Below, piece by piece: positions 4,191-17,728 of a DNA stretch of 64,000 nt (the stretch's first letter is position 1; each line of letters opens with the position of its first letter). Source of the DNA: Enterobacteria phage vB_EcoM_IME281; the sequence record MH051913. One strand, written 5' to 3'. The translations under genes were made by a program, and so were the position numbers. The notes beneath the pieces were generated by a model. It made no database searches. It worked only from the letters and a program-made list of their open reading frames with translations, and had not been told where the DNA came from.

Positions 4191-4415
4191 ATGAAAACTT
4201 ATCAAGAATTTATTACAGAAGCTAAAAAACACGAAGACCAACTGCCGGTTGTTACAAAAACCTTTGACGGTACATTGGCCGATTTTAAAAAAGTCCCTAG
4301 TGATAGGCTCGCTAAATTGACCGGGAGTATCGGTGAAAAAGATGGCAAGGTCACGTTTTCTGCTCAAGGTACAGCCAATCTTAAAAAACTTTTGAAAGCC
4401 GCTGGCGCAGAATAA
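4191..4415 (+). CDS. internal-protein-like, CTS family (74 aa)
   Basis: MKTYQEFITE|A N-terminus; preceded by early promoter cassette 4125-4153. Confidence 0.6.
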   Translation: MKTYQEFITEAKKHEDQLPVVTKTFDGTLADFKKVPSDRLAKLTGSIGEKDGKVTFSAQGTANLKKLLKAAGAE

Positions 4416-4416
4416 A

Positions 4417-4689
4417 ATGAAAACTTATCAAGAATTTATCGCTGAATCTATTCTTAATGAGGAAGTAAAAATTAACAAATCTGTTAAGACTATGATTGAT
4501 GATATAAATCATCTCTATAACATTGATTTGACTAATCATGTAACTTTAGGCAATAAGCGAAACTTTTTTGTATTTGATACTTCAGAACTTGACCAGAATC
4601 AAATTAACAATATTGAACGTTTTGCTAATGAAAAAGGGTTGCGCCACGAGACGGCTGGTTATAAAAAGTATGCAATTTATTTAAAATAA
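4417..4689 (+). CDS. internal-protein-like, CTS family (90 aa)
   Basis: MKTYQEFIAE|S N-terminus; tandem with two other CTS genes. Confidence 0.6.
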   Translation: MKTYQEFIAESILNEEVKINKSVKTMIDDINHLYNIDLTNHVTLGNKRNFFVFDTSELDQNQINNIERFANEKGLRHETAGYKKYAIYLK

Positions 4690-6509: not shown

Positions 6510-6583
6510 GGCCCTGTAGCTGGACGGTCAAGCGAGCGACTCATAATCGCTGGATGGTGGTTCGATTCCACCCAGGGCCACCA
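6510..6583 (+). tRNA. tRNA with CAT anticodon (Met or Ile2/lysidine)
   Basis: Hand-folded cloverleaf: acceptor GGCCCTG/CAGGGCC, anticodon stem AGCGA/TCGCT with loop CTCATAA, T-arm GGTGG-TTCGATT-CCACC, encoded CCA. Confidence 0.8.
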
Positions 6584-6587
6584 ATTT

Positions 6588-6662
6588 GGATGTGTAGCTC
6601 AGCGGTAGAGCAGTTGACTGTTAATCAATTGGTCCATGGTTCGAATCCATGCATGTCCGCCA
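6588..6662 (+). tRNA. tRNA-Asn (GTT anticodon)
   Basis: Hand-folded: D-stem GCTC/GAGC, anticodon loop CTGTTAA, T-arm CATGG-TTCGAAT-CCATG, acceptor with two G-U pairs, encoded CCA. Confidence 0.7.
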
Positions 6663-6666
6663 AATA

Positions 6667-6742
6667 CGAGGCATAGCTCAGAAGGAAGAGCAACGGTCTT
6701 CTAAACCGTAGGTCGTAGGTTCGATCCCTACTGTCTCGACCA
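6667..6742 (+). tRNA. tRNA-Arg (TCT anticodon)
   Basis: Hand-folded: D-stem GCTC/GAGC, anticodon stem ACGGT/ACCGT with loop CTTCTAA, T-loop TTCGATC, encoded CCA; T4 also encodes tRNA-Arg(UCU). Confidence 0.8.
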
Positions 6743-7602: not shown

Positions 7603-8220
7603 ATGAAAACTTACAATGAATTTTTGAACGAAAGCGTTCTGAATGAAGCCGGCGTGCGCATGACTAAAGATATGTGGCAAGCTGCTTATGATAAAATTTC
7701 CGGGACTAAAACCACTACCGAGTTCTTTAAAAACGTTTATGATATGTATGGTTTTGATACTAGTAGCCAGAAAGAATATTACAAAGCTTCCAAAGCTTTT
7801 AAAGATATCGTAGCCGGTGGCTCTACTAAGCCTGCTAAACCTGCTAAAGCTCCTGTTGCTAAACCTGCGGCTCAGCCCAAAGTTGCAGCACCGAAACCTA
7901 CACCTAAACCAGAACCTGTAAAAGAAGCTCCTAAATCTAAAATCAAGTTTGACACCAGCACTATAGTTAAAAAATATAACCAACTGGCTTCTTTAGTTTC
8001 TGAAATCGAATCTGAAACTAAACACCTTGTTCGTGAATTCAACGCTCTTCGTAACGGTCAACACATTAACAACCTGGATACCCCAGACCTGTATCGTCTC
8101 TATCTGACGGTTGAAGGCCTTAAGTATACCCAGCCTATGCGCGAAGAAATCAATAACAAACTTCGCCAAGCGGGCCGCATTGCTGGTGACGCAGCACAGT
8201 TCGAAAAGACTCGTAAATAA
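7603..8220 (+). CDS. internal-protein-like, CTS family, with Pro/Ala/Lys-rich linker (205 aa)
   Basis: MKTYNEFLNE|S N-terminus; PAKPAKAPVAKPAAQPKVAAPKPTPKPEP low-complexity linker; late promoter upstream. Confidence 0.6.
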   Translation: MKTYNEFLNESVLNEAGVRMTKDMWQAAYDKISGTKTTTEFFKNVYDMYGFDTSSQKEYYKASKAFKDIVAGGSTKPAKPAKAPVAKPAAQPKVAAPKPTPKPEPVKEAPKSKIKFDTSTIVKKYNQLASLVSEIESETKHLVREFNALRNGQHINNLDTPDLYRLYLTVEGLKYTQPMREEINNKLRQAGRIAGDAAQFEKTRK

Positions 8221-8343: not shown

Positions 8344-8607
8344 ATGGATAATTATGGTGAATTGTTTAATTTCTTTATGAAATGCGTTCCTGAAGAATTT
8401 GGTGCTACTGTTAACGATATTAAAGTTATCGGTCCTGAACACCCAGTGTATGAAACCTATGCAGTAATGGGTAATGAAGATGGACAGTGGTATACAATTA
8501 AAGTTGTGATTAGTATGTTCTCAGCTGAAGGCTACGCCAAATCGTCTACCAAAGTTTATCATGATAACGATTTTGATGCGGAAGAGTATTTCAATAATAT
8601 GAAATAA
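8344..8607 (+). CDS. hypothetical protein (87 aa)
   Basis: ATG after AAGGAGAG in cassette leader. Confidence 0.5.
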   Translation: MDNYGELFNFFMKCVPEEFGATVNDIKVIGPEHPVYETYAVMGNEDGQWYTIKVVISMFSAEGYAKSSTKVYHDNDFDAEEYFNNMK

Positions 8608-8609
8608 TT

Positions 8610-8639
8610 GTTTACATGGGCTCATGATTAAGATATTAT
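8610..8639 (+). promoter_or_regulatory. early promoter with hairpin
   Basis: GTTTAC then TATTAT; GGGCTCAT/ATGAGCCC inverted repeat around the -10. Confidence 0.5.
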
Positions 8640-8664
8640 GAGCCCATAATTTGAGGAGAACATA

Positions 8665-9063
8665 ATGAATATCGAAGATAAAGAAATGCAAGAGTTGTAT
8701 AATTCATTAACGCCTGAACAACAAAAAGCTGCCAAAGAATTAGAGAAAGCTCTTGCTTTCAACTTGGCAAAAACTGATTGGGCTGCCATGTATGAAGAAA
8801 AAACTAGATTAGAACTTGAAGCTGCTGAGAGAAATGAATGGATTGTCGAAACCAAGATTTCTGATGGTGGTTGCTCTGTTGAGGTGTCAGCTGTAGTTAA
8901 AGGCACTCATGGCGAAAAATCATGGGGTTGGCATAATGAAGCAAACAAACATATTGTTCTCTCAACGTCAAAAACTTATGGCCAAAGGGCTCCTGTATCC
9001 AAAGCTATTATTAAGCAAGCTCAATGGGAAGCCAATGAAATCTGCCTCGCAAAAATGAAATAA
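8665..9063 (+). CDS. hypothetical protein (132 aa)
   Basis: GAGGAG RBS; promoter cassette 8610-8639 upstream. Confidence 0.5.
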   Translation: MNIEDKEMQELYNSLTPEQQKAAKELEKALAFNLAKTDWAAMYEEKTRLELEAAERNEWIVETKISDGGCSVEVSAVVKGTHGEKSWGWHNEANKHIVLSTSKTYGQRAPVSKAIIKQAQWEANEICLAKMK

Positions 9064-9066
9064 AAT

Positions 9067-9096
9067 GTTTACATCCCTCAGAGGACAGGGTATAAT
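9067..9096 (+). promoter_or_regulatory. early promoter with hairpin
   Basis: GTTTAC, 18 nt, TATAAT; GAGGACA/TGTCCTC inverted repeat. Confidence 0.55.
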
Positions 9097-9138
9097 GTCC
9101 TCATGGATTATAAATCTTAATCAACTGAAGGAAATACT

Positions 9139-9732
9139 ATGAACACTTTAAAGAAAATCGTTGAATTCATCCGTTCTAAACTGGGTACTGCAATGGCTCA
9201 GAACCTGTCAATCGAAGACCAATACACCAAAGCTGCTTCTACCCTGATTGATAAGATTACTGAACTCCAGACTGCTCATGTTAAGTCCGTGAATGAAGAA
9301 AAACGTATTCGTGCGTTGGCTAATGAAAAAGACCAGCTTGCTGCTTCTAAAGAACGTGAAATTCGTAAACTGATTGCCGAAGGCGCTGATGTCCAGGTAC
9401 ATGCTAAACTTGGCCTCCTTTATCGTCGTACAGCTACTCAGCTTCGTAAGAAAGCCGATGATTATATCGAAATGCGTAATGAAATTAAACTGAAGGTCAA
9501 GGAACTTGATGACTCTCGTCAAGAACTGGCTGTTAAGCTCGAGTACATCCGTGAAACTCGTAATATGGCTGCCCTTGGTATTGCTACTGCCGATGATGTT
9601 GTTGAAATCGCTGCACTGACTAAGATTGATATTGAAGATACCCTGCTGCGTGTAGAAACGTTTAAAGGCCCACAAGTTGGAATGGATACGACTTCTGCCG
9701 ATATCGACGACTACATTAATTCACTTAAGTAA
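9139..9732 (+). CDS. coiled-coil protein, possible PspA/IM30-like (197 aa)
   Basis: Amphipathic N-terminal helix then long heptad-like charged coiled coil resembling PspA organisation; weak inference. Confidence 0.3.
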
Positions 9733-9739
9733 TGTTACT

Positions 9740-9762
9740 GGGAGACTTCGGTCTCCCTATTT
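9740..9762 (+). terminator. hairpin / weak terminator
   Basis: GGGAGAC-TTCG-GTCTCCC hairpin followed by TATTT. Confidence 0.45.
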
Positions 9763-9780
9763 GGAGGAGAGGAGAATATT

Positions 9781-10323
9781 ATGAGTTTATATGACGACCT
9801 GATATCAAATATTGATTGGTTTAAGCATAGTGGTCTTTCACATGAAACTAATTCAGTTCTTTATAGAATTCGCCAAGACTTAGGTTATTCCAATGATTTC
9901 TTAAGTCGAACAAATAGCCGTGGATACACTAGCAAATTACCTTTTATCTTTGCTTTAGCTGAGGACCTTTCTTTTGCAGAAGCTTTAGAAATTATTGACT
10001 TAAATCTGGGTATTCAACGAGTGGAATTCGCTGGATTATGCTATTCAGTATACGCTTTAAATGAACCGAGTGATTGTAAACAGCTTGTTGATGCTGACGA
10101 TGATTACCATTTAGTATGCTATTTGATGTTAGAAAATGGTGACCACTTTGGTATGGTCGACCGCCGCCCGAGTTATTCGGATATTAAAAATTACGATAAA
10201 GATGAGCTTATTATTTTGGCTAATGAGTATACATCAGAGATTCGAAAACAACAACGGAAGCTTAATCGTTTTATTGCTGAATGTCGCGAATACGCTAAAG
10301 AGGTTCAAAATGGAGCGGCCTAG
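9781..10323 (+). CDS. hypothetical protein (180 aa) with C-terminal FIAEC motif
   Basis: ORF track; C-terminal RFIAECREY resembles FIKEC tails of 10310 and 14739 products. Confidence 0.5.
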   Translation: MSLYDDLISNIDWFKHSGLSHETNSVLYRIRQDLGYSNDFLSRTNSRGYTSKLPFIFALAEDLSFAEALEIIDLNLGIQRVEFAGLCYSVYALNEPSDCKQLVDADDDYHLVCYLMLENGDHFGMVDRRPSYSDIKNYDKDELIILANEYTSEIRKQQRKLNRFIAECREYAKEVQNGAA

Positions 10324-10663
10324 TCTTTCATCACATGTTTATCAATTGACTGAATATGATATTGGTGCCAATTTATTATTAGGGATTGTTACAGCCATGC
10401 TTGGTGGCTTAATTGGCCTGGTAATGACCGTGGTTATGGCTGTAATCGAAGGAGTCACACCTATTGAGATGGGGTTCTATATGATAATCGCTCCGGCAGT
10501 TGTGGCCTATTTTATCCCTGTTGTGTATGATATTTGCCATACAAACGCTTTGAATGCTCCAATCCGTAAGAGATATGCTTTAGAGATGGCTAATTATAAT
10601 GAGTATGTAAATCAAACTAAACGTAATGACCTTGAAATCTTTATTAAGGAATGTAAATCATGA
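10310..10663 (+). CDS. membrane protein (117 aa) with C-terminal FIKECKS
   Basis: M59 of track ORF 10136, AGAGG RBS; two hydrophobic helices; ATGA coupling to next gene. Confidence 0.5.
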   Translation: MERPSLSSHVYQLTEYDIGANLLLGIVTAMLGGLIGLVMTVVMAVIEGVTPIEMGFYMIIAPAVVAYFIPVVYDICHTNALNAPIRKRYALEMANYNEYVNQTKRNDLEIFIKECKS

Positions 10664-10950
10664 ATAAAATTGAAATTGAAATCCCAGAACACAACGACGA
10701 GAAATCTGCAGAAAAGGCTATCTATGCTCTTCTGAATAAAGTGAATACCATCGAACATGAATGTGAAGCTATTGCCGATAAGTATGGTATCCAATTCGGT
10801 ACCGGTGATTATGGTTCAGGCCGTACATATTATCCTGTCGGTTATGAATGCTCCCAGTGGTTTAAAGATGAAATTGAAAACAACGGCGGTGAAGTTGAAA
10901 ATGGTGTCGTTACAGTTGGTGCTTGGGTCTCCTCTTCGGCAATGTGCTAA
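10660..10950 (+). CDS. small protein, WVSSS-C tandem paralog 1 (96 aa)
   Basis: Ends GAWVSSSAMC; first of five tandem paralogs. Confidence 0.55.
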   Translation: MNKIEIEIPEHNDEKSAEKAIYALLNKVNTIEHECEAIADKYGIQFGTGDYGSGRTYYPVGYECSQWFKDEIENNGGEVENGVVTVGAWVSSSAMC

Positions 10951-10959
10951 GGAAACGCT

Positions 10960-11241
10960 ATGATGAATGATTACCGTAAAAATAAAGAGCTGGCTGAAGC
11001 AGTAAATGATATTCATAAAGCTATTCGTCGTGCTGAGGAAATTGCAGACAAATATGAGACTCATTTTAATATATACCCTGCTCGCGGTATGGGCGGTGAC
11101 TATTATTCTCCTGGCGCCCTGAAAGCCGACCTTGCTCACTGGGAAGAATACGGTGAAGCTCAGTACGCTATTGTAAACCAACATGATTACACTACCAGCC
11201 TAGAAAATGGTGGATGGGTATCCTCTTCTTCTGAATGTTAA
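10960..11241 (+). CDS. small protein, WVSSS-C tandem paralog 2 (93 aa)
   Basis: Ends GGWVSSSSEC; shares ADKY motif with paralog 1. Confidence 0.55.
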   Translation: MMNDYRKNKELAEAVNDIHKAIRRAEEIADKYETHFNIYPARGMGGDYYSPGALKADLAHWEEYGEAQYAIVNQHDYTTSLENGGWVSSSSEC

Positions 11242-11250
11242 GGAATTATT

Positions 11251-11448
11251 ATGTCTCGTGAACTAGATTGTGCAATCCGTACTGCCGCGGCGGCTATTGA
11301 AAACGTTATCCAGATTTGCAAAGAAGAACGTGAAGAAGCTGATATCTATATCGATGGTCAACGTGACCTGGAACGTCATATCACGCTTTATAACGGTTGT
11401 ATTACTATTAGTGGTACCTCTTGGGTGTCCTCCTCTTACGAATGCTAA
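11251..11448 (+). CDS. small protein, WVSSS-C tandem paralog 3 (65 aa)
   Basis: Ends TSWVSSSYEC; TAAGGA stop/RBS junction. Confidence 0.55.
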   Translation: MSRELDCAIRTAAAAIENVIQICKEEREEADIYIDGQRDLERHITLYNGCITISGTSWVSSSYEC

Positions 11449-11457
11449 GGAAATAAA

Positions 11458-11667
11458 ATGACTATTGATGAAATTGAAAAACAAATCCGTGAATTAGTAC
11501 GTAAAGGTCAGTCCGTGGCTGACGAAACAGGTCAGCACTTCCACGCCGGCGGCGAAGAATATATTCCAGCTTCTAGTCCGGAATATGGCGATTACGAATG
11601 GGCCCGTGATGATTACGGTATTCCTGAAGGTGAAGGTTTCTGGTTTAGCTCCTCTATGTCTTGCTAA
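11458..11667 (+). CDS. small protein, WVSSS-C tandem paralog 4 (69 aa)
   Basis: Ends GFWFSSSMSC. Confidence 0.55.
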   Translation: MTIDEIEKQIRELVRKGQSVADETGQHFHAGGEEYIPASSPEYGDYEWARDDYGIPEGEGFWFSSSMSC

Positions 11668-11677
11668 GGTGATAAAA

Positions 11678-11902
11678 ATGACTGATATTAATGAATTAGA
11701 AAAAGCGGCACTTGAACTGGCTGCACTGTATAAGAAAGTAAAAGATATGGCTTCTGCTCAGGATTTTGGTGTTGAGCTCGACGATTATGACGGTGAAGTT
11801 CGTCTCGAAGATTGGCTGAATAGTTCTTGTTATGGTGAAGAAGCTGGTCGTACCTTCGTTGCTCGTGCCGATGGTAAAATCTGGTACCCAAGCTCATGCT
11901 AA
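11678..11902 (+). CDS. small protein, WVSSS-C tandem paralog 5 (74 aa)
   Basis: M32 of track ORF 11585; ends KIWYPSSC. Confidence 0.5.
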   Translation: MTDINELEKAALELAALYKKVKDMASAQDFGVELDDYDGEVRLEDWLNSSCYGEEAGRTFVARADGKIWYPSSC

Positions 11903-14049: not shown

Positions 14050-14739
14050 ATGAACGGCCCGAAAACTTTTAATTCTCAAGCTCGTGCAGTCGGTGGTTTT
14101 GCTCAAGATATCAGTAATGATATGATTAAAAATGAGCCTATGTTCTTTAATTGTGATGCTTATTTTGCTCATAAACACGGCGGTCCTATTACTCGTAGCT
14201 TTATTGAAAACCTGCCTGAAGATTGGCAATGTGGCCCTGATATTGTATTTGATTCCCGTGTACACATGTTAATGCCTGGCTGGTACCCTGCAATTCCAGG
14301 CTTCCACCATGATGATGTACCACGCCCGGATATTCCGGTCGGTCAACACTTTATTACCGCAGGGCAACCTGATTATGATAATCCTCGTTACCATTCTGAA
14401 CATATTCTTGGTCTTGTTAACGCTGATGTGTGTCCTACCCATTTTGCAACCGGAACTGCACAGTTCAGTCGGATTCCTGAAGGCGAACTTATCTATCGCC
14501 AGTGGCATAAAGAAGTTCTGGAAAAAATTGAGTCCAATGAATTAACCAAGTGGGATGCTCCTGACCGCACGTTACTCCAGTTTGATTGGCAGACATGGCA
14601 TACAGGTTCTCGTGCAGTAAGTAATGGGTGGCGCTGGTTTGGTCGTGTGTCTCGTAATACAGACCGTGTTAAAAAGATTACAAATGAAATCCGCGTTAAT
14701 GCTCAAGTATATCTGGAATTCCCTATGGAGGGCTGGTAA
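14050..14739 (+). CDS. hypothetical protein (229 aa), His-rich motifs
   Basis: GAGGAAAA RBS; FHHDD and HSEH motifs could indicate a metal-binding fold; weak. Confidence 0.45.
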   Translation: MNGPKTFNSQARAVGGFAQDISNDMIKNEPMFFNCDAYFAHKHGGPITRSFIENLPEDWQCGPDIVFDSRVHMLMPGWYPAIPGFHHDDVPRPDIPVGQHFITAGQPDYDNPRYHSEHILGLVNADVCPTHFATGTAQFSRIPEGELIYRQWHKEVLEKIESNELTKWDAPDRTLLQFDWQTWHTGSRAVSNGWRWFGRVSRNTDRVKKITNEIRVNAQVYLEFPMEGW

Positions 14740-15326
14740 TGGCCCTTTATGAACCTGGTTGTATGGGTATTGATACAAACTTCATCCGTCGGTCGGAAAA
14801 TGCTGGAATTATTATCCCAAGTGGTGAGACTATGATTATTAAAAAGTCCTGGCGAAATATAGATGACGGTGATGAAGGAATTTCAGCCAGTACAATAGAT
14901 TGGTCAGGTTGTACTGCCGAAATGAAACAGCTTTTAATTGAGGAATATAAAATGGGCTATATCGTAAACGGCTGGCAAGCGGAACCACATAAAGAACAGA
15001 CTCCAGACCCATTGATTTGTTATAGCAAAAAATACGGCTTCCGTGCATGGAGTGATGAATACGACAAATTGGTGAGTTCTAGATTCTATGTTTGGATGGG
15101 TATATTATTTTTCCCACTCCTAGGGTTTTTCCTGACAACAGATAATGACCTGCCTATTTGTGTATTCGCTTCAGCGATGTCTGCTGCTATCTTAGGTCTT
15201 ATCGCATCATTTTTATGGACATCGGTTATCGAAGTACCTTTTCGTATTTCTAAAGTTAAAAAGGTATATGATGATATCACTAAGAAAAATACATTAAACT
15301 CTTTTATTAAGGAATGTCGTAAATGA
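14739..15326 (+). CDS. hypothetical protein with C-terminal membrane segments and FIKECRK tail (195 aa)
   Basis: ORF track; C-terminal module shared with 10310 product. Confidence 0.5.
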   Translation: MALYEPGCMGIDTNFIRRSENAGIIIPSGETMIIKKSWRNIDDGDEGISASTIDWSGCTAEMKQLLIEEYKMGYIVNGWQAEPHKEQTPDPLICYSKKYGFRAWSDEYDKLVSSRFYVWMGILFFPLLGFFLTTDNDLPICVFASAMSAAILGLIASFLWTSVIEVPFRISKVKKVYDDITKKNTLNSFIKECRK

Positions 15327-16031: not shown

Positions 16032-16526
16032 ATGGATATTTTTGATATGTTACGTCAAGACGAAGGTCTTGATTTAAATCTTTATAAAGACACTGAAGGT
16101 TATTGGACTATTGGTATTGGCCAGTTAGTTACCAAGAACCCATCTAAAGATGTTGCTCGTGCTGAACTTGATAAGCTTATGGGCCGAGTTTGTAATGGTC
16201 GTATTACTATGGCTGAAGCCGAACAACTCTTTAACCGATCGGTTGAAAATGCTCGTAGAGCTATTCTGCGTAATCCTAAATTGAAACCTGTTTACGATGT
16301 ATTGGACGAAGTTCGTCGTTGTGCTTTAATTAACATGGTCTTCCAAATGGGTGAAGCAGGTGTAGCAGGGTTCACTAACTCTTTACGTATGCTCCAACAG
16401 AAACGTTGGAACGATGCGGCAGTTAACCTGGCTCAATCCCGTTGGTATAAACAAACCCCTAATCGTGCTAAGCGCGTGATTTCAACATTTAAAACAGGTA
16501 CTTGGAAAGCATATGAAAACTTATAA
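16032..16526 (+). CDS. e: endolysin (T4 lysozyme e)
   Basis: 164 aa; [56 protein letters not shown] near-collinear with T4 lysozyme. Confidence 0.95.
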
Positions 16527-16911
16527 TGAATTTATCGCAGAGAATGTAGTTCCTGCATCTAAAGAACTTCTGGCGATGTTTGAATCAGAAGAATTCACCG
16601 AAGAACTGAACGAGAACCTGACCCAGGCCACTCCTCAGGTTATTCGCGTTCGTAATGCCCTTCAGACTGGCATGCAGGCTCGTGTATCTAAGACTATGAA
16701 GCTGGCATTCACTACTTCTAAGAACGAAGACTATGGCGATGGTATCGCTATGAACACCGGACAGTATTATGTTGAGTGGAATGGCGAAACCGGTACTGCT
16801 AAGATTCGTCAGACACGTGCCGCTGGTGGCAAAATGCTGGACGTTAAATTGAACGTTAAAGAGAAAGACGTCGCAGCTTTGTTTAAGAATTGGATGAAAA
16901 CTTACAAATAA
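16513..16911 (+). CDS. internal-protein-like, CTS family (132 aa)
   Basis: [10 protein letters not shown]|N N-terminus; at the T4 ipIII/ipII locus beside e and denV. Confidence 0.6.
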
Positions 16912-17428: not shown

Positions 17429-17728
17429 ATGAAAACTTATCAAGAATTTATTACAGAAGCCAAAGCCCCTAAAGCATTTCAAATTGGAGTCCAAGGCACT
17501 TTAGACCAAGAATATGTTGACGCTATTGTAGCAAGCCTCGGTAAACAAGGTGTACAAGTGGATTTGGTTGATTTTACTAAAGGCAACACTTTTAATATTG
17601 TTACATCTAAAGGCTCTTTAGCTAAAGTTAAAAAGGCCTTTGGTGTAGCCCAAGCATACGAAATCGACCACTCTGAATTAGAAAATAAAGGTCGCCAGAA
17701 TACAATTAAAGGTTCTGGTTCTTTCTAA
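17429..17728 (+). CDS. internal-protein-like, CTS family (99 aa)
   Basis: MKTYQEFITE|A N-terminus. Confidence 0.6.
   Translation: MKTYQEFITEAKAPKAFQIGVQGTLDQEYVDAIVASLGKQGVQVDLVDFTKGNTFNIVTSKGSLAKVKKAFGVAQAYEIDHSELENKGRQNTIKGSGSF

What the first reader, a model, noticed from the sequence alone, without database searches (positions are those of the whole stretch)
9139..9732. PspA/IM30-like coiled-coil protein
The 197-aa product is almost entirely predicted charged coiled coil with an amphipathic N-terminal helix, resembling PspA/Vipp1 membrane-stress proteins. A phage copy could stabilise the inner membrane during infection or interfere with the host Psp response. Confidence in the homology is low.
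Basis: inference. Interest (0 to 1): 0.4.

Follow-up and report, generated by a model that had tools for sequence, protein, structure and literature searches.

The report
T4 e.6: a phage PspA-like protein
This 197-residue early gene of a T4-like phage (the counterpart of T4 gene e.6) is a very divergent relative of the bacterial membrane-repair proteins PspA/Vipp1, so the phage probably carries its own inner-membrane stabiliser, although nobody has tested what it does.

Summary
The ORF at 9139-9732 (+) is real. It encodes 197 aa and is the orthologue of T4 gene e.6 (PHROG 1203, "unknown function"). The window is a Dhakavirus, 100% identical to phage AnYang here.

The protein alone shows no PspA signal with BLASTP, Pfam or a profile of close relatives. 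The link appears once divergent family members are added:
- Two Ackermannviridae-type members pass Pfam's PspA_IM30 threshold (39.0 and 35.1 bits against 33.9).
- They align full length with the T4-like group (hhalign 99.4%, E 9e-22).
- The family profile's best PDB match is Vipp1 (E 1.2e-4, positions 1-146 to 1-147).
- hhalign against PspA/Vipp1 scores 45.3; shuffled controls give 15.6 ± 2.3.

It is not entirely new: a 2022 paper made the same call for a Kuttervirus member of PHROG 1203, and NCBI names one relative "PspA/IM30 family protein".

Function is inferred, not shown. The gene has an early promoter, and T4 e.6 is expressed early. The likely role is protecting the inner membrane.

The parts
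9068..9096 (+). Sigma-70-type (T4 early-type) promoter-like site, TTTACA-17 nt-TATAAT, 43 nt upstream of the start codon
   Evidence: Best site in 8500-10800, 11 of 12 consensus matches. Sequence read. T4 e.6 is classed as an early transcript in the supplements of PMC9697503. Promoter activity itself was not tested.
9127..9133 (+). Shine-Dalgarno-like GAAGGAA, 5 nt before the ATG
   Evidence: Read directly from the sequence.
9139..9732 (+). Coding sequence, 197 aa. Orthologue of T4 e.6, member of PHROG 1203, divergent PspA/IM30-like (ESCRT-III superfamily) protein
9142..9204 (+). Residues 2-22: N-terminal cationic amphipathic helix, the counterpart of PspA/Vipp1 helix alpha0 (membrane-binding helix)
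   Evidence: Helix 2-22 in the AlphaFold model. Hydrophobic moment 0.50, charge +3; family means 0.46 and +2.85. Aligned to PspA residues 1-22 by hhalign.
9211..9378 (+). Residues 25-80: first arm of the helical hairpin (alpha1)
   Evidence: AlphaFold helix 25-80, pLDDT rising from about 79 to 98 in 10-residue blocks. Collinear with PspA/Vipp1 alpha1.
9379..9393 (+). Residues 81-85 (EGADV): hairpin tip
   Evidence: Non-helical in both models. hhalign places it opposite PspA residues about 81-84.
9394..9573 (+). Residues 86-145: second arm of the hairpin (alpha2/alpha3)
   Evidence: AlphaFold helix 86-145. The Vipp1 match of the family profile runs to position 146.
9589..9660 (+). Residues 151-174: two short helices after the nearly invariant Gly147 (shortened alpha4 region). 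Lowest model confidence
   Evidence: Helices 151-160 and 165-174; pLDDT about 50-68 over residues 151-180. G147 is nearly invariant in the diverse alignment. About 25 residues shorter than PspA here.
9694..9726 (+). Residues 186-196: conserved C-terminal helix with motif Y-[LI]-x-S-L-K. Candidate counterpart of the end of PspA/Vipp1 alpha5 (E-L-A-x-L-K)
   Evidence: Y192 is nearly invariant. Helix 186-196. The forced global hhalign places it on PspA 205-214. This equivalence is tentative.
9740..9757 (+). GGGAGAC-UUCG-GUCUCCC hairpin 8 nt after the stop codon. Possible terminator or transcript-stabilising hairpin
   Evidence: Seven-pair stem with a UUCG loop in the minimum-energy fold. It is not better than shuffles (z -0.77) and the terminator scan did not call it because the T tract is short. 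A terminator is annotated at the same place in Yersinia phage fPS-65.
9781..10323 (+). Downstream gene in the position of T4 e.5 (180 aa, soluble) ending in F-I-A-E-C-R. Context only; a link to e.6 is conjecture
   Evidence: PHROG 8788. C-terminal motif shared with T4 e.5.
10310..10663 (+). Downstream gene related to T4 e.4 (117 aa, two predicted transmembrane helices) ending in F-I-K-E-C-K. Candidate membrane partner (conjecture)
   Evidence: PHROG 2330. Hydropathy segments 26-44 and 58-76, and weak similarity to T4 e.4 (E 5e-4).

Best explanation
The gene encodes a highly divergent, shortened, phage-borne member of the PspA/Vipp1 (IM30) branch of the ESCRT-III superfamily. It is the orthologue of T4 e.6. 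It is transcribed from its own early promoter. The likely mechanism, by analogy with PspA/Vipp1, has three steps. The cationic amphipathic N-terminal helix binds the cytoplasmic face of the inner membrane. The long alpha1-alpha2/3 hairpins stack into a polymer, with the conserved C-terminal helix contacting a neighbouring subunit. The resulting coat stabilises or reseals stressed membrane, so that proton-motive force lasts until programmed lysis. A phage copy makes sense because T4-type phages shut off host transcription (established knowledge, not tested here), so the host's own inducible psp operon could not respond. Shown here: the gene, its conservation, the homology and the predicted fold. 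Inferred: membrane binding, polymerisation and the physiological role.
For: Identity: the ORF is in the T4 e.6 position, between the tRNA cluster and nudE/e. It is 74% identical to Tequatrovirus copies and belongs to PHROG 1203. Homology: 5 of 40 diverse family members hit Pfam PspA_IM30. P0195 (39.0 bits, E 8.9e-10) and P0189 (35.1 bits) exceed the 33.9-bit cut-off over profile positions 2-143, and the next family for P0195 is at E 0.045. The T4-like profile found these members at E 1e-17 and 1e-20 in 1.84 billion proteins, and they align full length with it (hhalign 99.4%, E 9e-22). The family profile's best PDB hit is Vipp1 (E 1.2e-4, positions 1-146 to 1-147), followed by other Vipp1 entries. 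hhalign against PspA/Vipp1 alignments gives 90-93% probability, E 4e-7 to 2e-6, collinear 1-176 to 1-172. The score is 45.3, against 18.6 for the reversed profile and 15.6 +/- 2.3 (maximum 25.5) for 60 block shuffles. Fold: alpha0, a 56/60-residue hairpin, then short C-terminal helices; pLDDT 83. Foldseek PDB ranks 1-10 are Vipp1, and the next superfamily entries, CdvB2, start at rank 13. Alpha0 is amphipathic and cationic across the family. Expression: an 11/12 promoter match lies 43 nt upstream, and T4 e.6 is early RNA / middle protein. Independent literature: PMC9409062 reports HHpred homology of a PHROG 1203 member to PspA. NCBI names a relative 'PspA/IM30 family protein'.
Confidence: 0.6

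Rival explanations
1. Counter-defence version: the protein is PspA-like, but its selected role is to neutralise abortive-infection systems that kill by depolarising or permeabilising the inner membrane (Rex-like systems, membrane-pore effectors). It would coat and reseal the membrane for that purpose rather than for general housekeeping during infection.
For: This is the hypothesis proposed for the Kuttervirus member of PHROG 1203 in PMC9409062. Early expression and location in a hypervariable accessory region full of unknown small genes fit a host-interaction gene.
Against: The gene is very widely and stably conserved across Straboviridae and Ackermannviridae: 1109 and 421 records, all about 195-205 aa. 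That is unlike the patchy distribution typical of counter-defence genes. No defence system is known to be countered by it, and nothing here distinguishes this role from general membrane protection.
Confidence: 0.2
2. Regulatory mimic: the protein acts on the host Psp system rather than on the membrane. It would bind PspF as PspA does, or co-polymerise with host PspA, to silence or hijack the host response.
For: In E. coli the PspA fragment 1-144 carries the PspF-binding function (established knowledge), and this is the part that aligns with e.6.
Against: Identity to E. coli PspA is only 9-11% in the profile alignment, and the family profile matches cyanobacterial Vipp1 better than E. coli PspA (E 1.2e-4 against 1.8). 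T4-type phages already block host transcription (established knowledge), which makes a dedicated repressor of one host operon redundant. The family spans hosts from Aeromonas to Klebsiella with little conservation on the hairpin surface: the diverse alignment has no invariant column.
Confidence: 0.1
3. Generic coiled coil: the protein is an unrelated helical hairpin (scaffold, adaptor or similar), and the PspA matches are compositional artefacts.
Against: Reversed and block-shuffled PspA profiles score 15-26 against 45 for the real one. Matches are collinear from residue 1, with the hairpin tips at about residues 81-85 and 81-84. Two members pass a curated Pfam threshold, 7 orders of magnitude ahead of the next family. 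Foldseek ranks 1-10 are one family.
Confidence: 0.08

Closest known systems
Vipp1/IM30 of cyanobacteria and chloroplasts (PDB 7O3W, 6ZVR, 8QBR, 8QFV)
   Same: Best sequence-profile match, collinear over residues 1-146, and best Foldseek matches. Same order of elements: amphipathic alpha0, alpha1-alpha2/3 hairpin of the same length, then C-terminal helices.
   Different: Only 14-18% identity. e.6 is 197 aa against about 260-270. It lacks the Vipp1-specific C-terminal extension and has a shortened alpha4 region. It is encoded by a lytic phage, not a phototroph. Polymerisation and membrane binding are untested.
E. coli PspA (PDB 4WHE) and the Psp response
   Same: Same superfamily. hhalign gives 90-93% probability, collinear from residue 1 to about 172. 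N-terminal amphipathic helix of similar moment. PspA is the host's own homologue.
   Different: 9-11% identity. Direct matches are at noise (E 1.8). There are no PspB/C/F partners next to it. It has a sigma-70-type early promoter, not a sigma-54/PspF-controlled one. It is not an equivalog of PspA or LiaH in NCBIfam.
PHROG 1203 members of Ackermannviridae (Salmonella phages SeF3a, Vi01, SP1; Klebsiella phage T751)
   Same: Same protein family: hhalign 99.4%, full length. Same size, about 202 aa. Already called PspA homologues by HHpred in PMC9409062, by precomputed Pfam hits and by an NCBI name.
   Different: Only about 22-24% identical to the T4-like branch: the alignment shows 24%, and tblastn of P0195 against T4-like Klebsiella phages gives 22-24%. 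The Ackermannviridae branch keeps a recognisable PspA N-terminal signature (EANV..GLDKL.DTEK against NANIN.LLDKAEDPQK) that the T4-like branch has lost. Genomic neighbourhood differs: next to DNA ligase and replication genes.
Archaeal/eukaryotic ESCRT-III (CdvB2, Snf7)
   Different: No sequence-profile match to Snf7-type families was seen. No Vps4-like ATPase is apparent nearby.

Membership tests
PspA/IM30 family (Pfam PF04012) | The protein itself matches the family HMM above the curated cut-off (33.9 bits) | tested here: not met
   No PF04012 hit for the window protein even at E 10. This is an operational criterion; the protein is too diverged for a single-sequence match.
PspA/IM30 family (Pfam PF04012) | Homology of its protein family to PspA/Vipp1, shown by profile methods and through intermediate sequences | tested here: met
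   P0195 at 39.0 bits and P0189 at 35.1 bits exceed the cut-off. They are full-length homologues of the T4-like group. Family profile against PDB: Vipp1 first, E 1.2e-4. hhalign 90-93%, score 45.3 against controls of 15.6 +/- 2.3. Caveat: the signal vanishes if only close T4-like sequences are used.
PspA/IM30 - ESCRT-III superfamily | Fold: N-terminal helix alpha0, long alpha1-alpha2/3 hairpin, then alpha4 and alpha5 | tested here: met
PspA/IM30 - ESCRT-III superfamily | Amphipathic membrane-binding helix alpha0 | tested here: met
   Moment 0.50, charge +3; family means 0.46 and +2.85; PspA 0.55, Vipp1 0.57. This is computed amphipathicity only; membrane binding was not tested.
PspA/IM30 - ESCRT-III superfamily | Conserved C-terminal helix (alpha5) that docks on a neighbouring subunit | tested here: inconclusive
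   A conserved terminal helix with Y-[LI]-x-S-L-K exists. The forced global hhalign places it on PspA's E-L-A-x-L-K. The local alignments stop at about residue 176.
PspA/IM30 - ESCRT-III superfamily | Self-assembly into rings, rods or sheets, and membrane remodelling or protection | not testable with these tools
   Needs purified protein, electron microscopy and liposome assays.
Proteobacterial Psp system (PspF-PspABC) | Operon partners PspB/PspC, the regulator PspF and a sigma-54 promoter | tested here: not met
   Neighbours belong to PHROGs of unknown function and have no Pfam match to Psp components. The promoter is sigma-70/T4-early type. NCBIfam gives no PspA equivalog hit, and LiaH scores only 16.5 bits against a 380-bit cut-off for a relative.
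Snf7/ESCRT-III (eukaryotic/archaeal type) | Sequence match to Snf7-type profiles | tested here: not met
   Snf7 is not among the families listed for any member; searches show only the 25 most-matched families. Only weak structural matches to CdvB2 and Snf7 were found.

The most novel reading that the evidence does not exclude
e.6 is the core of a phage-specific ESCRT-III-like membrane module. It polymerises on the inner membrane early in infection and recruits a changing set of partner proteins through a short C-terminal peptide. In the T4-like phages this peptide is F-[IV]-x-E-C-[RK], and it is shared by otherwise unrelated proteins encoded just downstream (T4 e.5, the two-transmembrane e.4, and window ORFs 9781-10323, 10310-10663 and 14739-15326). 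An analogous I-V-D-[KR]-A-R tail is shared by the two membrane proteins downstream of the Kuttervirus gene. The module would reseal injection damage or counter membrane-depolarising defences, replacing the host Psp response that the phage itself silences.
Probability: 0.15. Interest if true: 0.75.

Novelty: new member of a known kind. Interest (0 to 1): 0.5.

Why it matters
T4 is the best-studied lytic phage, yet e.6 is still annotated "conserved hypothetical protein". It is present in more than a thousand sequenced Straboviridae and Ackermannviridae genomes. Recognising it as a PspA/Vipp1 relative puts an ESCRT-III-superfamily protein into a genetically tractable virus. It also turns an old question into a testable one: how does an infected cell keep its membrane energised after DNA injection, host shut-off and holin build-up? 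The test is a clean knockout-and-microscopy experiment. The assignment would also correct misleading public annotations such as "host specificity protein" and "recombination endonuclease subunit D12". A 2025 review of bacterial and archaeal ESCRT-III systems held in the library does not mention phage-encoded members.

Tried and rejected
- Single-sequence Pfam and NCBIfam scans of the window protein gave only weak, assorted coiled-coil hits.
- BLASTP against E. coli PspA was at noise.
- A profile of 30 close relatives (A1) against PDB sequences gave no PspA/Vipp1 hit. A1 against PspA by hhalign scored below the reversed control.
- I tried twice to build a diverse PspA alignment. Both search for homologous proteins with E. 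coli PspA and the search for related loci in genome contigs returned only Enterobacterales sequences at 78% identity or more. The comparison profile was therefore narrow, with one Vipp1 sequence added.
- The search for related loci with the diverse alignment failed because no block was conserved enough.
- The afdb50 fold library was not available.
- Literature searches for 'e.6' mostly returned numerical noise. The T4 genome review (PMC150520) is not held.
- A spanin/Rz-like reading (PHROG 1267 at E 0.23; LysB at E 0.29) was rejected. The scores are at noise, and hydropathy finds no transmembrane segment in the 74%-identical T4 e.6.
- The public names 'host specificity protein' and 'recombination endonuclease subunit D12' have no support in any search.
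- The hairpin after the stop codon is not better than shuffled sequence, so it is listed only as a possible terminator.

Full report
**1. What is there**

The window carries an ATG-to-stop ORF at 9139..9732 on the + strand, 197 aa, exactly as reported. A GAAGGAA ribosome-binding site lies 5 nt upstream. The best sigma-70-type promoter match of the region, TTTACA-17-TATAAT with 11 of 12 matches, lies at 9068-9096. A GGGAGAC-UUCG-GUCUCCC hairpin follows the stop codon at 9740-9757. It folds as expected, but no better than shuffled sequence and the terminator scan did not call it. A terminator is annotated at the same place in Yersinia phage fPS-65.

The window is a T4-like phage. The protein is 100% identical to ORF074 of Escherichia phage AnYang, a Dhakavirus of the Straboviridae. 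The gene lies between a tRNA cluster (6510-6742) and nudE plus the lysozyme gene e. That is the position of T4 gene e.6, which is also 197 aa. Tequatrovirus copies are 74% identical.

tblastn finds the gene in 1109 phage records, nearly always full length. It matches PHROG 1203, "unknown function", at E 1.6e-83. In T4, e.6 is classed as an early transcript with a middle-class protein in the supplements of PMC9697503, so the protein is made.

**2. The descriptive part of the finding holds**

- 34% of residues are charged.
- About 85% of residues are helical in the AlphaFold models.
- Residues 25-80 and 86-145 form a long antiparallel hairpin with pLDDT about 90-98.
- Residues 2-19 form an amphipathic helix with moment 0.50 and charge +3. 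E. coli PspA alpha0 has 0.55 and Vipp1 alpha0 has 0.57.
- The family means are 0.46 for the moment and +2.85 for the charge.

**3. Is it PspA-like? Direct tests fail**

- Pfam gives only weak, assorted coiled-coil hits for the window protein and for 30 close relatives.
- BLASTP against E. coli PspA, taken from MG1655, is at noise.
- A profile of the 30 close relatives (alignment A1) finds nothing relevant in PDB sequences.

**4. Widening the family changes the picture**

An exhaustive profile search of 1.84 billion representative proteins found only 46 clusters. Apart from a few short fragments they are about 195-210 aa, so this is a compact, phage-restricted family. A 40-sequence alignment reaching down to 17% identity (A2) then gave four independent signals.

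- **Pfam.** Five members hit PspA_IM30. P0195 (39.0 bits, E 8.9e-10) and P0189 (35.1 bits) pass the 33.9-bit cut-off over profile positions 2-143 of 220. The next family for P0195 is at E 0.045.
- **PDB sequences.** The A2 profile's best hit is Synechocystis Vipp1 (E 1.2e-4), with profile positions 1-146 aligned to residues 1-147. Further Synechocystis and Nostoc Vipp1 entries follow. E. coli PspA appears at E 1.8 with the same register.
- **Profile against profile.**

  | hhalign comparison | Score | Probability |
  |---|---|---|
  | A2 against PspA/Vipp1 (small alignment, A3) | 49.4 | 92.7% |
  | A2 against PspA/Vipp1 (78-sequence alignment) | 45.3 | 89.8% |
  | A2 against reversed PspA profile | 18.6 | 1.0% |
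  | A2 against 60 heptad-block shuffles | mean 15.6, sd 2.3, max 25.5 | mean 0.6% |

  The real alignments have E 4e-7 to 2e-6 and are collinear over 1-176 to 1-172. The hairpin tips fall at about residues 81-85 in e.6 and about 81-84 in PspA.
- **Structure.** With the A2-based model (pLDDT 83), Foldseek against PDB ranks Vipp1 in places 1-10 (E 7e-4 to 4e-2), then archaeal ESCRT-III CdvB2 and others.

**5. The bridge to the window protein**

P0195 belongs to the Ackermannviridae: Kuttervirus phages such as Vi01 and SP1, and Klebsiella phage T751. Its relatives carry precomputed PF04012 hits, and NCBI names one of them "PspA/IM30 family protein".

The T4-like profile found P0195 at E 1e-17 and P0189 at E 1e-20. 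hhalign of the T4-like alignment against the Kuttervirus clade gives 99.4% probability, E 9e-22, over 194 of 197 residues. tblastn with P0195 directly hits genes annotated e.6 in Aeromonas phage 65 and Edwardsiella phage PEi20.

The chain from the window protein to its family to PspA/IM30 is therefore continuous and full length.

**6. Limits**

- The signal depends on the divergent members. A1 alone scores 23.0 against PspA, below the reversed control at 27.6. A2 without the Ackermannviridae-like sequences scores 35.0, above all shuffles but with only 56% probability.
- A prefoldin coiled coil scores E 1e-3 in the PDB profile search.
- My PspA comparison alignment was narrow.
- I put the homology at about 0.85-0.9 and the proposed mechanism at about 0.5.

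**7. Anatomy compared with PspA/Vipp1**

| Element | Residues in e.6 | Note |
|---|---|---|
| alpha0 | 2-22 | cationic amphipathic helix |
| alpha1 | 25-80 | first hairpin arm |
| tip | 81-85 | non-helical |
| alpha2/3 | 86-145 | second hairpin arm |
| Gly147 | 147 | nearly invariant |
| alpha4 region | 151-174 | two short, poorly modelled helices |
| C-terminal helix | 186-196 | conserved motif Y-[LI]-x-S-L-K |

A forced global alignment places the C-terminal motif on the E-L-A-x-L-K end of PspA/Vipp1 alpha5. This equivalence is tentative. The protein is about 25 residues shorter than PspA, mainly in the alpha4/alpha5 region, and it lacks the Vipp1 C-terminal extension.

It is not an equivalog of PspA or LiaH. 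No PspB, PspC or PspF counterparts lie nearby.

**8. Mechanism (inference)**

By analogy with PspA/Vipp1, alpha0 would bind the inner membrane, the hairpins would polymerise, and the coat would stabilise or reseal the membrane and so preserve proton-motive force. The gene has its own early promoter, and T4 e.6 is expressed early.

T4-type phages shut off host transcription (established knowledge, not tested here). The host's inducible psp operon could therefore not respond, which gives a rationale for a phage-borne copy.

The rivals are:
- a dedicated counter-defence role against membrane-depolarising abortive-infection systems, as proposed in PMC9409062;
- mimicry acting on host PspF or PspA;
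- a generic coiled coil, now largely excluded.

**9. Prior knowledge**

PMC9409062 (2022) states that Gp_125 of Salmonella phage SeF3a, a member of phrog_1203, is homologous to PspA by comparison with pdb70, and it suggests an anti-Abi role. It is the only paper in the library that mentions this PHROG.

A 2026 paper notes a "pspA-like gene" in jumbo gut phages. A 2025 review of bacterial and archaeal ESCRT-III systems does not mention phage-encoded members. I found no experimental work on e.6 or any relative.

The finding is therefore a correct re-discovery that extends a little-noticed annotation to T4 e.6 and the Straboviridae. It is a new member of a known kind, not a new kind.

**10. A lead from the neighbourhood**

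Proteins encoded just downstream of e.6 are otherwise dissimilar, yet they share a C-terminal F-[IV]-x-E-C-[RK] motif. Examples are:
- T4 e.5, and T4 e.4 (two transmembrane helices);
- window ORFs 9781-10323, 10310-10663 (two transmembrane helices) and 14739-15326 (membrane protein);
- counterparts in phages 65, phiR1-RT, avDM2, P19 and PSTCR6.

In the window the pattern occurs in the last 25 residues of 5 of 644 long frames: these three ORFs and two weaker matches that look like chance. In Kuttervirus SP1, the two membrane proteins downstream of the PspA-like gene share a different tail, I-V-D-[KR]-A-R.

Whether these tails dock on e.6 is pure conjecture and could not be tested here.

Noticed in passing
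window 9781-10323, 10310-10663, 14739-15326; also L003 (T4 e.5, e.4), L086, L087, L088, L090, L092: Otherwise dissimilar proteins encoded downstream of e.6 share a C-terminal motif F-[IV]-x-E-C-[RK]. Some are soluble; some have one or two transmembrane helices. In the window the pattern hits 5 of 644 long frames: these three ORFs plus two weaker matches that look like chance. Kuttervirus SP1 has an analogous shared tail, I-V-D-[KR]-A-R, on the two membrane proteins downstream of its PspA-like gene. This could be a docking peptide or a recombination joint.
   Followed up: partly
window 10660-10950, 10960-11241, 11251-11448, 11458-11667 (and 11585-11902): A tandem array of four or five small paralogous ORFs all ends in W-[VF]-S-S-S-x-x-C (the last one in Y-P-S-S-C). 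The first two match PHROG 899. The same tails occur downstream of e.6 in Yersinia phage phiR1-RT and Providencia phage PSTCR6. Function unknown.
   Followed up: partly
window 4191-4415, 4417-4689, 7603-8220, 16513-16911, 17429-17728: Five ORFs begin with M-K-T-Y-[NQ]-E-F. From memory, this resembles the capsid-targeting N-terminus of T4 internal proteins (IPI/II/III). ORF 7603-8220 (205 aa, PHROG 2280) also has a long Pro/Ala/Lys-rich linker and is annotated only as hypothetical in phage AnYang.
   Followed up: no
window 10136-10663 versus 9781-10323: The mechanically listed 175-aa ORF overlaps the e.5-position gene by 188 nt in another frame, and AnYang annotates both in full. The membrane protein more likely starts at the ATG at 10310 (117 aa, full-length match to PHROG 2330), overlapping the upstream stop by only 14 nt.
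   Followed up: partly
public records matched: e.6 homologues are named 'host specificity protein' in several GenBank and UniRef entries and 'recombination endonuclease subunit D12' in phage ZCEC14. No search here supports either name.
   Followed up: yes
window 6510-6742: Three adjacent tRNA genes (Met-CAT, Asn-GTT, Arg-TCT). This is a much smaller tRNA cluster than in T4 (8 tRNAs) or Yersinia phage fPS-65 (11 tRNAs) at the same genomic position.
   Followed up: no
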